From a virus (taxonomy: Duplodnaviria; Heunggongvirae; Uroviricota; Caudoviricetes), in IMG/VR virus record IMGVR_UViG_2671180849_000001: DNA of 6,902 bases. One strand, written 5' to 3'. Of the stretch, positions 1,207-5,247 are shown one piece after another. Position 1 is the first letter of the stretch. Each line of letters opens with the position of its first letter. The translations under genes were made by a program, and so were the position numbers. The notes beneath the pieces were generated by a model. The model saw only the letters and a list, made by a program, of their open reading frames with translations. It was not told the DNA's origin and made no database searches.

Positions 1207-1623
1207 TTATACCTCTGAATCAATATCAACCTGGTGGTGAGCAATGGTTTCAACCATGTACCGGATGTGTTCTGCCATGCGCTCCTGAAACTCAACATCG
1301 TCATCAAACGCACGGGTAATGGCTTTTTTGCTGGCCCCGTGGCGTTGCAAATGATCGATGCATAGCGATTCAAACAGGTGCTGGGGCAGGCCTTTTTCCA
1401 TGTCGTCTGCCAGTTCTGCCTCTTTCTCTTCACGGGCGATCTGCTGGTAGTGACGCGCCCAGCTCTGAGCCTCAAGACGATCCTGAATGTAATAAGCGTT
1501 CATGGCCGAACTCCTGAAATAGCTGTGAAAATATCGCCCGCGAAATGCCGGGCTGATTAGGAAAACAGGAAAGGGGGTTAGTGAATGCTTTTGCTTGATC
1601 TCAGTTTCAGTATTAATATCCAT
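1207..1623 (-). CDS. gam: Gam, RecBCD inhibitor, 138 aa
   Basis: ORF-track protein [79 protein letters not shown]... recognised as lambda Gam. A 5-nt gap separates it from the bet start, as in lambda. Confidence 0.95.
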
Positions 1624-1721
1624 TTTTTATAAGCGTCGACGGCCTCACGAAACATCTTTTCATCGCCAATAAAAGTGGCGATAGTGAATTTAGTCTGGAT
1701 AGCCATAAGTGTTTGATCCAT
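1578..1721 (-). CDS. kil: Kil, host cell-division (FtsZ) inhibitor, 47 aa; canonical copy
   Basis: ATG at 1721..1719 gives [47 protein letters not shown]. It overlaps the gam start by 46 nt, the lambda arrangement. It is the C-terminal 47 aa of track ORF 1578..1826. Confidence 0.8.
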
Positions 1722-1810
1722 TTTTTGGGACTCCTGGCTGATTAAGTATGTCGATAAGGCGTTTCCATCCGTCACGTAATTTACGGGTGATTCGTTCAAG
1801 TAAAGATTCA
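1608..1810. repeat. Tandem direct repeat, unit 1 of 2 (period 203 bp); this copy carries lambda-type sequence
   Basis: Plus-strand cagtattaatatccattttttataagcgtcgacggcctcacgaaacatcttttcatcgccaataaaagtggc... at 1608 recurs at 1811. Identity runs 1608..1809 versus 1811..2012 with five substitutions, all between about 1681 and 1721. Confidence 0.9.
1690..1810 (-). pseudogene. cIII: 5'-truncated second copy of cIII (codons ~15-54, no start codon) left by the duplication
   Basis: Sequence from the junction down to the canonical cIII stop (plus-strand TTA at 1690..1692) encodes ...[37 protein letters not shown] in the cIII frame, but nothing in that frame initiates it. Confidence 0.6.
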
Positions 1811-1924
1811 CAGTATTAATATCCATTTTTTATAAGCGTCGACGGCCTCACGAAACATCTTTTCATCGCCAATAAAAGTGGCAATAGTGAATTTTGTCTG
1901 GATAGCCATAAGTTTTTTATCCAT
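1808..1924 (-). CDS. kil: Second kil allele in the duplicated unit, 38 aa (MDKKLMAIQ...KKWILIL), ending at a TGA created at the duplication junction
   Basis: ATG at 1924..1922, which is the canonical kil start shifted by 203 bp. Relative to copy 1 it has Q3K and T4K and lacks the last 9 residues. It is part of track ORF 1808..2050. Expression is not known. Confidence 0.45.
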   Translation of the reverse strand: MDKKLMAIQTKFTIATFIGDEKMFREAVDAYKKWILIL

Positions 1925-2013
1925 TTTTGGGGACTCCTGGCTGATTAAGTATGTCGATAAGGCGTTTCCATCCGTCACGTAATTTACGGGTGATTCGTTC
2001 AAGTAAAGATTCG
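1811..2013. repeat. Tandem direct repeat, unit 2 of 2; variant copy
   Basis: Same 203-bp unit directly abutting unit 1. It differs from unit 1 by five substitutions (on the plus strand: g>a, a>t, g>t, g>t, t>g) and no indels. Confidence 0.9.
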
Positions 2014-2057
2014 GAAGGGCAGCCAGCAACAGGCCACCCTGCAATGGCATATTGCAT
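1917..2057 (-). CDS. cIII: CIII (inhibitor of FtsH-mediated CII degradation), 46 aa; stops 8 codons early relative to the 54-aa lambda CIII
   Basis: Reverse complement from the ATG at 2057..2055 reads [46 protein letters not shown] then TAA (plus-strand TTA at 1917..1919). AAGGAG Shine-Dalgarno (plus-strand ctcctt at 2064..2069). The stop arises from a tca>taa substitution within the variant repeat copy. Confidence 0.75.
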   Translation of the reverse strand: MQYAIAGWPVAGCPSESLLERITRKLRDGWKRLIDILNQPGVPKNG

Positions 2058-2129
2058 GGTGTGCTCCTTATTTATACATAACGAAAAACGCCTCGAGTGA
2101 AGCGTAATTGGTATGCGGTAACGCCGCGC

Positions 2130-2951: not shown

Positions 2952-3155
2952 ATATCACCTCAAATAAGTTGTTTGCTGCGAAAGTAAATACGCTTAAGTT
3001 ACCTGTTATTTATCCCACCAAGTTCCGTATCTATCTATCTATCCAGTTACACCAATCATCGACACTCCATTTTGTTGTGTCGCATTTTTGCAACTGGCAT
3101 GAATATCTACCTTCTTTGTAAAGTCGGCGTTTGACTTTCTTGAGCATGGCTCACC

Positions 3156-3910: not shown

Positions 3911-3942
3911 AAGAAAACCCGGCGCAGAGGCCGGGTTTTTCT
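3911..3942. terminator. Bidirectional rho-independent terminator immediately downstream of the accessory cassette
   Basis: Plus strand reads aagAAAA-CCCGGC-gcagag-GCCGGG-TTTTTct: a 6-bp GC stem flanked by an A-run on one side and a T-run on the other, so it is terminator-like on both strands. It abuts the stop codon (3941..3943) of the 258-aa gene. Confidence 0.7.
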
Positions 3943-4717
3943 AGGCTACCAGAGAGTCAATCCAAGAGTCTCTGGTATGGAATGGCAACACTCGTGCGGT
4001 ATCATTAAATAGTAGTGATAGTTGCTGTAGCTCAGGTGTTAACCCATCGCTGTCAACTATTACAAATCTATTGTTTATGTCAGGAACGACCTGACTTAAG
4101 TCAACAATCTTCCCAACTGTTGAGTGGGCAGTATTCCATCCTTTACTGCTGGCAAGGCTTACCGTAAACCCGCGTTTTGGTGGTATTAGTCGAGACTCAT
4201 TCCTTAGCGTTAACGGAACAGTAATGTTATGCCCACTAATACCTTTCACTTTTTCCTTTAAGGCTAGTCGCTTCCCAAGCCCTGCTGATTTTAAGTAACT
4301 GATTACACATTTTTCGAACTTATCGTCTTTGACCTCAGCATACCAATCAGCAGTTTGGGCGGATGCAAGAATCCCACCACGAATAACATTTGCAGTTACC
4401 TGTCCAACGGACGACTCATCTGCCCACGCAGATATCTCTCCAGAGTCATTTAATGAAATTCCTTGCGAAGCGAGTGATGACCTGATCAGATCAATTTTCT
4501 TTTTAGTCAGGTGGATGCCGCGTGATTCAATATTCATCAATGTATCGCAGTAGTCTGTAACCCTATACTGACCACTCATCTCTTGAACGAATACGCTTAT
4601 CTGCTCACAATCATCGTAGTATGTGAAGGGACTAATAACGCGCAGCAACGTGTCGCTCATTGGGTGGCATTCAAACCCGAGCTTAGATATGACTGTTGAA
4701 CACGTTACATTTCCCAT
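3941..4717 (-). CDS. Hypothetical protein, 258 aa, no family recognised; downstream gene of the two-gene cassette at the rexAB-equivalent locus
   Basis: Track ORF MGNVTCSTVISKLGFECHPMSDTLLRVISPFTYYDDCEQ.... The ATG at 4717 overlaps the upstream gene by 13 nt (coupled arrangement). An alternative start is the ATG at 4660 (MSDTLL...), which has no clear Shine-Dalgarno. No long hydrophobic segment, no Walker motif. Confidence 0.7.
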   Translation of the reverse strand: MGNVTCSTVISKLGFECHPMSDTLLRVISPFTYYDDCEQISVFVQEMSGQYRVTDYCDTLMNIESRGIHLTKKKIDLIRSSLASQGISLNDSGEISAWADESSVGQVTANVIRGGILASAQTADWYAEVKDDKFEKCVISYLKSAGLGKRLALKEKVKGISGHNITVPLTLRNESRLIPPKRGFTVSLASSKGWNTAHSTVGKIVDLSQVVPDINNRFVIVDSDGLTPELQQLSLLFNDTARVLPFHTRDSWIDSLVA

Positions 4718-5247
4718 GATAGCTGACCTGATTTATCTTGATTCGGTAAAGGTGGGCTGCCTTCATATATGATATTAAGCGCCTCGCAAAAATAATTCCA
4801 GTAGCCAAAAAAATCATCTGGCTTGATGTTCGTTTCAAGCTTGAGTGCAATTTCTTCCCCAGCTGATTCGAAGTACATGTGATAGTGAGGACCTCGAGCC
4901 ACCTCAACAAAATCTGGATGGTGCACTATAGATTTATTACGGTGTGACTTGTTATGCGCAGGGTACGGGTCAAGCGCGTAAATGCGCCTGTCATGAAGAA
5001 ACATCACAAATGAAAGCTTCACTATATCCACCCCTTCAACGATAGGAGAACGCCAGTGAAGCATAAATCTTATGCCTGTGATTGGGTTGCCAATTTCATC
5101 AAAAGCTTTGAGATCCAATTTAAACCAGATTGGGGTTCGTCCCTCACTTCCGGTCCACGAAACTCCGCTAAAAGTTACTTTTTTCAAGCGAGTAATAGCT
5201 TGGTCAACCTCTTTCTGGGTAGGCTTAAAGTCGCCTTTTTTAGCCAC
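4705..5247 (-). CDS. Hypothetical protein, 180 aa, no family recognised; His-rich central segment; upstream gene of the cassette
   Basis: Track ORF; the first codon is GTG (plus-strand cac at 5245..5247), preceded by GGTGAT 9 nt upstream. Product MAKKGDFKPTQKEVDQAITRLKK... contains FLHDRRIYALDPYPAHNKSHRNKSIVHHPDFVEVARGPHYHMYFE. Same strand as cI, directly downstream of it. Confidence 0.7.
   Translation of the reverse strand: MAKKGDFKPTQKEVDQAITRLKKVTFSGVSWTGSEGRTPIWFKLDLKAFDEIGNPITGIRFMLHWRSPIVEGVDIVKLSFVMFLHDRRIYALDPYPAHNKSHRNKSIVHHPDFVEVARGPHYHMYFESAGEEIALKLETNIKPDDFFGYWNYFCEALNIIYEGSPPLPNQDKSGQLSWEM

What the first reader, a model, noticed from the sequence alone, without database searches (positions are those of the whole stretch)
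1578..1826. Duplication places a second gam start codon in frame with kil, creating an 82-aa N-terminally extended Kil ORF
The duplicated gam initiation region (ATG at 1826 with the same upstream context as the genuine gam start at 1623) reads MDINT, then 30 residues from the cIII 3' region in the kil frame (VNLYLNESPVNYVTDGNALSTYLISQESQK), then the full canonical Kil. If translated, this yields a Kil variant with a 35-aa N-terminal extension alongside normal Kil. Kil blocks host cell division, so altered dosage or form could change the filamentation and killing phenotype on induction.
Basis: inference. Interest (0 to 1): 0.5.

Follow-up and report, generated by a model that had tools for sequence, protein, structure and literature searches.

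The report
Private tandem duplication in kil-cIII-gam
A lambda-like E. coli prophage carries a one-off 203-base tandem duplication across the cIII/kil/gam overlap; the 82-codon "extended Kil" frame it produces is mostly a reading frame already open in phage lambda and has no ribosome-binding site, so it is probably an incidental ORF rather than a new protein.

Summary
Bases 1608-1809 and 1811-2012 are a head-to-tail repeat with period 203.

The interpretation needs three corrections.
1. The extension is not new. Residues 7-82 are the native kil reading frame, which is open upstream through cIII in lambda itself as an 89-aa ORF. Only MDINT(V) is new.
2. The ATG at 1826 copies the "GamL" start. 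That start has no Shine-Dalgarno, is not the start RefSeq annotates (GamS, 98 aa), and heads an extension that is broken by stop codons in about half of phages with identical GamS.
3. Both kil copies keep their own strong ribosome-binding sites. The likely products are normal 47-aa Kil plus a C-terminally truncated 38-aa Kil.

The duplication is a singleton. It is absent from 5,426 complete E. coli genomes, from the phage and plasmid collections, and from IMG/VR, GTDB and JGI contigs. Relatives that are 99.8% identical carry one copy.

The two copies differ at 5 clustered SNPs, and the extra copy carries the lambda-type allele. This points to recombination with a second lambdoid element, or to an assembly chimera.

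Interest is low.

The parts
1608..1809 (.). Repeat copy A, next to gam. It carries the lambda-type allele at 1680, 1692, 1711, 1715 and 1726.
   Evidence: The five SNPs match lambda and E. coli 118UI prophage.
1810..1810 (.). Junction filler base A (native cIII has G here). Alternatively read as a 2-nt filler after a TTC microhomology.
   Evidence: One search compares the junction with the native cIII side and the native gam side.
1811..2012 (.). Repeat copy B, next to the cIII 5' end. It is identical to the single copy in the closest relatives.
   Evidence: The window without copy A differs from NZ_CP180607 by 2 SNPs plus one TATC unit.
1578..1826 (-). The 82-codon ORF of the finding: the duplicated GamL ATG, then the native upstream kil frame, then full Kil.
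   Evidence: Pfam Lambda_Kil matches residues 37-67 only. No SD. AF2 gives residues 1-20 pLDDT below 50.
1578..1721 (-). kil copy A: full-length 47-aa Kil, 100% identical to lambda Kil, with its own AGGAG Shine-Dalgarno.
1808..1924 (-). kil copy B': 38 aa (MDKKL...WILIL*), cut by the junction. It lacks the C-terminal KLRSSKSIH but has its own AGGAG Shine-Dalgarno.
1808..1811 (-). GTGA overlap: the TGA stop of kil-B' (1810-1808) overlaps GTG (1811-1809), which is codon 6 of the 82-aa ORF. This is a possible termination-reinitiation site giving a 77-aa form.
   Evidence: Read directly from the sequence. The coupling itself is inference.
1690..1809 (-). Orphan 3' fragment of cIII (lambda-type, ...SNTYGYPD*). 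It is preceded by an in-frame TAA and has no ATG/GTG/TTG start, so it is presumably untranslated.
   Evidence: frame 2: Y*YCESLLERITRKL....
1917..2057 (-). cIII, the 46-aa form typical of this prophage lineage, intact.
2012..2070 (-). cIII mRNA thermoregulator (Rfam RF01804). It is intact and lies just outside the duplicated unit.
   Evidence: 88.5 bits, gathering score 50.
1808..2050 (-). The native long kil-frame ORF (MPLQGG...), here 80 aa because the junction truncates it. It corresponds to the 89-aa ORF of lambda.
1207..1623 (-). gam. The GamL frame starts at 1623 (138 aa). GamS starts at 1503 (98 aa) with an AGGAG Shine-Dalgarno.

Best explanation
The window is the leftward early (pL) operon of a lambdoid E. 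coli prophage. It carries a private tandem duplication of 202 nt plus 1 filler base. The duplicated unit runs from codon 16 of cIII, through kil codon 38, to 16 nt past the GamL ATG.

Read in the direction of transcription, the locus is now: intact cIII (46 aa); a truncated kil-B' (38 aa); an untranslatable cIII 3' fragment; a full lambda-type kil (47 aa); and gam.

The extra copy carries the allele of a different lambdoid phage type. The event therefore involved a second lambdoid element. One route is an exchange that was homologous on one side and illegitimate at 1810/1811. Another is a duplication followed by short-patch gene conversion.

The 82-codon ORF is a by-product. A copy of the Shine-Dalgarno-less GamL ATG has landed in the kil reading frame, and that frame is natively open upstream. 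On induction the expected products are normal Kil, a weaker 38-aa Kil', CIII and GamS, with little or no 82-aa protein.

Shown: the anatomy, the uniqueness of the duplication, the allele pattern, the missing SD and the native long frame. Inferred: the recombination route, the activity of Kil' and the lack of translation from 1826.
For: Duplication and ORF.

Uniqueness. The closest relatives are 10 complete genomes at 99.8% identity, and all hold one copy. The window without copy A differs from NZ_CP180607 by only 2 SNPs and one TATC unit. The junction was not found in E. coli genomes, phages, plasmids, IMG/VR, GTDB or JGI contigs. A junction-independent pattern for the same period also found nothing; its positive control on the window matched, and a DUST-masking control for the 40-nt junction query passed.

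Allele pattern. There are 5 SNPs in 203 bp against 2 in 6,695 bp, Poisson P about 6e-9. All 5 match the lambda-type allele. That allele is contiguous with the same gam, with 1 mismatch in 603 bp, in at least the 60 E. coli genomes listed.

Start site. Neither GamL ATG has an SD, while GamS, both kil starts and cIII have -6.9 to -8.5 kcal/mol. RefSeq annotates Gam as 98 aa. The GamL extension is interrupted in 40 of 80 loci with identical GamS.

Native long frame. It occurs in lambda and in many assemblies.

Literature. A kil ATG point mutant abolishes killing (PMC3961180). Kil with 11 C-terminal residues deleted (residues 1-36) is still active, though about 10-fold weaker (PMC11762379).
Against: The region around the ATG at 1826 is A/U-rich and predicted to be fairly open, with mean unpaired probability 0.68. 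SD-independent initiation at a low level is therefore possible.

Reviews and the RecBCD-Gam structure paper treat GamL as a real isoform (PMC5218532, PMC11610958).

The GTGA stop/start overlap at the junction could couple translation of kil-B' to a 77-aa extended Kil.

I have no reads, so I cannot show that the duplication is real. Its hetero-allelic nature needs either two events or an unusual one.
Confidence: 0.6

Rival explanations
1. One reading: an N-terminally extended Kil is made alongside 47-aa Kil and changes the filamentation and killing phenotype. It would be 82 aa from the ATG at 1826, or 77 aa by reinitiation at the GTGA overlap.
For: The ORF is intact and in frame. The start context from -57 to +16 is identical to the GamL start, which some literature treats as used (PMC5218532, PMC11610958). 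The start region is predicted accessible. The stop of kil-B' overlaps an in-frame GTG. N-terminal Kil fusions such as His6-FLAG-Kil (about 10.5 kDa) are active in vivo and even ZipA-independent (PMC3961180). AF2 keeps the helix-turn-helix core at pLDDT 86-90, with residues 1-20 at low confidence (pLDDT below 50).
Against: There is no SD. The GamL extension is not conserved and is not annotated by RefSeq. In lambda, the upstream in-frame 89-aa ORF does not rescue a kil ATG mutant (PMC3961180). The GTG at the junction is predicted to be paired, with unpaired probability 0.02. The duplication is a singleton, so there is no sign of selection.
Confidence: 0.12
2. The duplication is not biological. 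It is an assembly or sequencing chimera that stitches together the kil-cIII alleles of two co-resident lambdoid prophages.
For: The two copies carry two different natural alleles. Genomes often hold several kil loci: 2,370 places in 1,743 genomes, up to 5 per genome. The junction is found nowhere else. None of the duplication-specific gene products is on record: 82, 80, 77 or 38 aa.
Against: The junction is a novel sequence with a filler base (AAGATTC-A-CAGTATT). Mis-traversal of a repeat graph cannot produce this without reads that contain it. The rest of the window is collinear with complete genomes and nearly identical to them.
Confidence: 0.2
3. The duplication is real and was selected because it doubles kil dosage (47-aa Kil plus 38-aa Kil'), lengthening the division block and the latent period on induction.
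For: Both kil copies keep their SD and ATG. Kil residues 1-36 retain activity (PMC11762379). [quoted passage not shown]
Against: It is seen in one sequence only. Kil' lacks the RSSK motif that is found in nearly all homologues (PMC11762379). There is no evidence of spread.
Confidence: 0.08

Closest known systems
Phage lambda Kil (47 aa; Pfam PF06301), a ZipA-dependent inhibitor of FtsZ ring assembly
   Same: Copy A encodes a protein 47/47 identical to lambda Kil. It has the same SD, the same overlap with cIII and gam, and the same place in the pL operon.
   Different: A second kil copy, truncated to 38 aa, lies upstream. An SD-less ATG 105 nt upstream opens an 82-codon version of the frame.
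The 89-aa long kil-frame ORF of lambda and its relatives (MPLQGGLLLAALPNLYLNESPV...), which NCBI and gene callers often label 'Kil'
   Same: Residues 7-82 of the window ORF are this same frame. Identity is 92-96% over 93% of the query, and the frame reads the same way in lambda itself.
   Different: The first 13 residues (MPLQGGLLLAALP) are replaced by MDINTV from the duplicated GamL start. The native ATG lies 7 nt after the cIII ATG and is not part of the duplicated unit.
GamL / GamS, the alternative starts of lambda gam
   Same: The ATG at 1826 and its surroundings (-57 to +16) are an exact copy of the GamL start.
   Different: After 5 codons it reads into the kil frame instead of gam. GamS, the form with an SD that RefSeq annotates, is unaffected.
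Engineered N-terminal Kil fusions (His6-Kil, His6-FLAG-Kil)
   Same: An N-terminal extension of some tens of residues on an intact Kil. Such fusions block division (PMC3961180, PMC11762379).
   Different: Those fusions are expressed from strong vector ribosome-binding sites. Here no expression signal is evident.
HK629-type short Kil (37 aa, ...AYRKWRSK)
   Same: It is similar in length to kil-B' (38 aa). Natural short Kils exist and are active (PMC11762379).
   Different: kil-B' ends in WILIL and lacks the RSK/RSSK motif. It resembles the weaker engineered deletion of 11 C-terminal residues.

Membership tests
Lambda Kil (PF06301) | Sequence match to the family model above the curated threshold | tested here: met
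   70.5 bits against a cutoff of 27.6, residues 37-67 of the 82-aa ORF. Copy A is 47/47 identical to lambda Kil.
Lambda Kil (PF06301) | Own start codon with a Shine-Dalgarno, located between cIII and gam and overlapping both, in the pL operon | tested here: met
   AGGAG 8 nt upstream of the ATGs at 1721 and 1924, -6.9 kcal/mol.
Lambda Kil (PF06301) | Intact helix-turn-helix core (residues 4-38) plus a C-terminal RSSK/RSK motif | tested here: met
   Met for copy A. Copy B' keeps residues 1-38 but lacks the RSSK motif, so it does not meet the second half of this feature.
Lambda Kil (PF06301) | Blocks FtsZ ring assembly in a ZipA-dependent way | not testable with these tools
   Known for the identical lambda protein (PMC3961180). 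Not measured for this locus.
   best anti-SD duplex +0.4 kcal/mol for the ATG at 1826.
   The junction is a singleton. The 82-aa and 77-aa products are not on record. The GamL extension is open in only 38 of 80 loci.
   Needs ribosome profiling, mass spectrometry or reporter fusions.
Tandem duplication by illegitimate recombination | Head-to-tail copies that are absent from otherwise near-identical relatives | tested here: met
Tandem duplication by illegitimate recombination | Microhomology at the novel junction | tested here: inconclusive
   at most 3 nt (TTC), with 1-2 filler bases.
Tandem duplication by illegitimate recombination | Copies identical at birth, with differences scattered as random mutations | tested here: not met
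   5 clustered SNPs, all matching another natural allele. A second donor or a gene conversion is required.

The most novel reading that the evidence does not exclude
The junction creates a naturally expressed long Kil of 77-82 aa. It would be made by SD-independent initiation at the copied GamL ATG, or by termination-reinitiation at the GTGA overlap with the truncated upstream kil. Like engineered N-terminal Kil fusions, it would be more potent and independent of ZipA, making this prophage unusually toxic on induction.
Probability: 0.07. Interest if true: 0.35.

Novelty: new variant of a known kind. Interest (0 to 1): 0.15.

Why it matters
As it stands, it matters little. It is a private structural variant of one of the best-studied phage loci, and its most likely effect is a modest change in Kil dosage.

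It is a useful caution for annotation. Long 'Kil' ORFs of 67-124 aa in databases mostly reflect the naturally open kil frame over cIII or read-through past the stop. They are not evidence of longer proteins.

If the extended form were made, it would be a natural counterpart of the hyperactive, ZipA-independent Kil fusions reported in PMC3961180. It could then help separate Kil's interactions with FtsZ and with ZipA.

Tried and rejected
1. Searched for the junction elsewhere. I used a 40-nt megablast query against complete E. coli genomes, phages and plasmids. I used a 33-nt exact pattern, or a junction-tolerant pattern, against IMG/VR, GTDB genomes and JGI metagenomes. I also used a junction-independent pattern for period 203 +/- 14. 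All were negative. The controls show that the queries work.

2. Tried to find the source contig by exact product: 82, 80, 77 and 38 aa. None is on record. The 73-aa TTG-start form hit only the single-copy phage YYZ-2008. The 46-aa cIII is too common to be useful: it is listed in 12,327 blocks, and all 10 places shown were single copy.

3. Considered in-situ duplication followed by random divergence. Rejected, because all 5 differences reproduce a known alternative allele and the rate is about 80 times that of the flanks.

4. Considered a simple unequal crossover with a lambda-type phage that replaced the whole left arm. Rejected for the donor type examined, because the window follows the relative and not that donor at every difference left of 1176 and at 1507.

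5. Considered whether the orphan cIII 3' fragment could be translated. There is no in-frame ATG/GTG/TTG after the preceding TAA.

6. Looked for published lambda ribosome-profiling data on gam and kil starts. The PNAS 2013 paper is not held, and the DNA Research reanalysis does not mention these genes.

Full report
CONTEXT
The window is the early-left and immunity region of a lambdoid E. coli prophage. On the minus strand it holds exo (partial), bet (416-1201), gam (1207-1623 as GamL, 1207-1503 as GamS), kil, cIII, a DUF2528/ea10-like gene, ral, an N-family antiterminator, two genes in the rexAB position and an S24-type repressor. On the plus strand it holds cro, cII and the start of O.

Ten complete E. 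coli genomes carry the same prophage region at 99.8% identity.

Two repeat finders report a two-copy tandem repeat at 1608-1809 and 1811-2012, with period 203 and 97-98% identity. A repeat-spanning pattern matches the window once and none of 200 shuffles.

The 82-codon ORF at 1578..1826 (-) reads MDINT, then 30 residues, then a 47-residue segment that is 47/47 identical to lambda Kil.

The sequence around the ATG at 1826 is identical to that around the ATG at 1623 from -57 to +16.

ANATOMY IN THE DIRECTION OF TRANSCRIPTION (MINUS STRAND)
- The cIII thermoregulator RNA element (2070-2012) and cIII (2057-1917, 46 aa) are intact.
- kil copy B' starts at 1924 with its own AGGAG. It runs into the junction and stops at TGA 1810-1808 after 38 codons (MDKKL...WILIL*), losing KLRSSKSIH.
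- The copied GamL ATG sits at 1826.
- The junction is AAGATTC-A-CAGTATT on the plus strand: one filler base, or TTC microhomology plus two filler bases.
- Next comes a 3' fragment of cIII (1809-1690, lambda-type end ...SNTYGYPD*). It follows an in-frame TAA and has no start codon.
- kil copy A (1721-1578, 47 aa, own AGGAG) follows, and then gam.

THE 'EXTENSION' IS NOT NEW
A protein search with the 82-aa ORF returned many 89-aa proteins of the form MPLQGGLLLAALP-NLYLNESPVNYVTDGNALSTYLISQESQ[KR]-MDQTL...SIH. They cover 93% of the query at 92-96% identity, and NCBI names some of them Kil. There were also 79-aa and 67-aa forms.

Translating lambda itself shows the same 89-codon frame, which starts 7 nt after the cIII ATG. 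A 73-aa TTG-start call identical to residues 10-82 of the window ORF exists in the single-copy phage YYZ-2008.

So the kil frame is natively open across the cIII overlap. The duplication only swaps its first 13 codons for MDINTV. The window also retains the native long frame, as the 80-aa ORF 2050-1808.

THE ATG AT 1826 IS A POOR CANDIDATE START
Its best pairing with the 16S anti-SD is +0.4 kcal/mol. The values are -6.9 for GamS and both kil starts, -7.1 for bet and -8.5 for cIII.

It copies the GamL start. RefSeq annotates Gam as the 98-aa GamS form in the relatives.

Among 80 IMG/VR loci that encode a GamS 100% identical to the window's, only 38 keep an open 40-codon MDIN... extension. Forty have stop codons in it, including 13 of the 50 loci with a lambda-type kil upstream.

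The literature does describe GamL and GamS as two isoforms 'presumably' made from two starts (PMC5218532, PMC11610958). The region is A/U-rich and predicted to be open. Weak initiation therefore cannot be excluded.

A more specific route is that the TGA of kil-B' overlaps an in-frame GTG as GTGA (1811-1808). This could allow termination-reinitiation to a 77-aa form. It is inference only, and that GTG is predicted to be base-paired.

In lambda, a point mutation of the 47-aa kil ATG abolishes filamentation and killing although the upstream in-frame ORF is untouched (PMC3961180). This argues that upstream in-frame starts give no effective Kil.

WHAT THE PRODUCTS WOULD DO
This section rests on the literature plus inference.
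- Full-length Kil from copy A is identical to the lambda protein.
- Kil lacking its C-terminal 11 residues (1-36) still blocks division but leaves about 10-fold more Z-rings. The RSSK/RSK motif is nearly universal in homologues (PMC11762379). Kil-B' (1-38, no RSSK) is therefore probably a weak extra dose.
- Natural 37-aa Kils of the HK629 type exist, but they end in RSK.
- N-terminal fusions such as His6-FLAG-Kil (about 10.5 kDa) are active and were reported to act even without ZipA (PMC3961180). If the 82-aa form were made, it would probably be active.
- AF2 models the Kil core at pLDDT 86-90 and the first 20 residues below 50.

ORIGIN OF THE DUPLICATION
With copy A removed, the window differs from E. 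coli PS1Thumoskin9 (NZ_CP180607) by 2 SNPs and one TATC unit in 6.7 kb. That relative's single copy is the B allele.

Copy A differs from copy B at five positions within 47 bp: 1680, 1692, 1711, 1715 and 1726. All five equal the lambda-type allele. At the background divergence, the chance of at least 5 differences in 203 bp is about 6e-9.

The stretch of gam plus copy A (1207-1809) occurs contiguously, with one mismatch, in at least the 60 E. coli genomes listed. Compared with one such prophage (strain 118UI), the window follows the relative at 1507 and at every difference left of 1176. The foreign patch is therefore short, at most about 300 bp.

The simplest biological scenarios are these:
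- an exchange with a co-resident or superinfecting lambdoid phage that was homologous on the gam side and illegitimate at 1810/1811; or
- an in-situ duplication followed by short-patch gene conversion.

Co-resident kil-bearing prophages are common: 2,370 places in 1,743 genomes.

An assembly chimera of two prophage alleles is the main non-biological alternative. The novel junction with a filler base argues against a pure graph artefact. Only reads can settle this.

UNIQUENESS
The junction is absent from 5,426 complete E. coli genomes, 50,697 phage records, 72,556 plasmids, IMG/VR, GTDB species representatives and JGI metagenome contigs. No equivalent duplication of similar period was found. 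All 49 IMG/VR loci in which both the cIII ATG and the GamS ATG were found have the single-copy spacing of 350-352 nt, against 554 in the window.

VERDICT
The sequence feature is real and is correctly described. The extended-Kil protein is unlikely. The extension is mostly an already known incidental frame. The likelier effect of the duplication is an extra, truncated kil gene.

This is a private variant of a thoroughly known locus, and interest is low.

Noticed in passing
window 3941-4717 (-) and 4705-5247 (-): Two overlapping genes sit where lambda has rexA/rexB, between N and the repressor. One is a 258-aa DUF1828 protein. The other is a 180-aa protein with a sub-threshold DUF6978 match. They give weak PADLOC hits to the candidate defence pair PDC-M24B (E 6e-7) and PDC-M24A (E 1.5e-3). 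This may be a prophage-encoded defence module.
   Followed up: partly
window 2012-2070 (-): The Rfam cIII thermoregulator (RF01804, 88.5 bits) ends at 2012. The duplicated unit 1811-2012 starts at that same base. The regulatory RNA structure is left intact and single-copy. Whether this is coincidence or related to the breakpoint is unknown.
   Followed up: no
window 1917-2057 (-): cIII in this lineage is 46 aa rather than lambda's 54 aa. The kil-B allele (GAT AAA AAA) creates a TAA in the cIII frame. This short CIII is very widespread, being listed in 12,327 blocks of the protein-position index.
   Followed up: partly
window 1503-1623 (-), and loci L005-L084: The 40-codon GamL extension is not conserved. 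Among 80 IMG/VR loci with a GamS identical to the window's, 40 have stop codons in it. This supports GamS as the conserved product.
   Followed up: yes
window 3028-3043: A (TATC)4 microsatellite lies upstream of the N-like gene. The closest relative has 3 units. This is one of only three differences outside the duplication.
   Followed up: no
proteins P0002, P0006, P0059-P0061, P0069; P0004, P0007, P0008, P0011: Databases hold many aberrant 'Kil' calls. Some are read-through past the kil stop into the GamL region (82-124 aa). Others are in-frame fusions of Ral, ea10, CIII or unrelated N-termini to the long kil frame, caused by deletions or frameshifts. The open frame around kil is therefore prone to spurious long ORF calls.
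   Followed up: partly
loci L085 and L093, 2634-2747: Natural 37-aa Kil (…AYRKWRSK, HK629 type) occurs next to the same 46-aa cIII in phages whose recombination module is not Red: Anti-RecBCD_p2/Abc2 in both, and Rad52-family plus SSB in L093. The mosaic boundary lies inside kil.
   Followed up: partly
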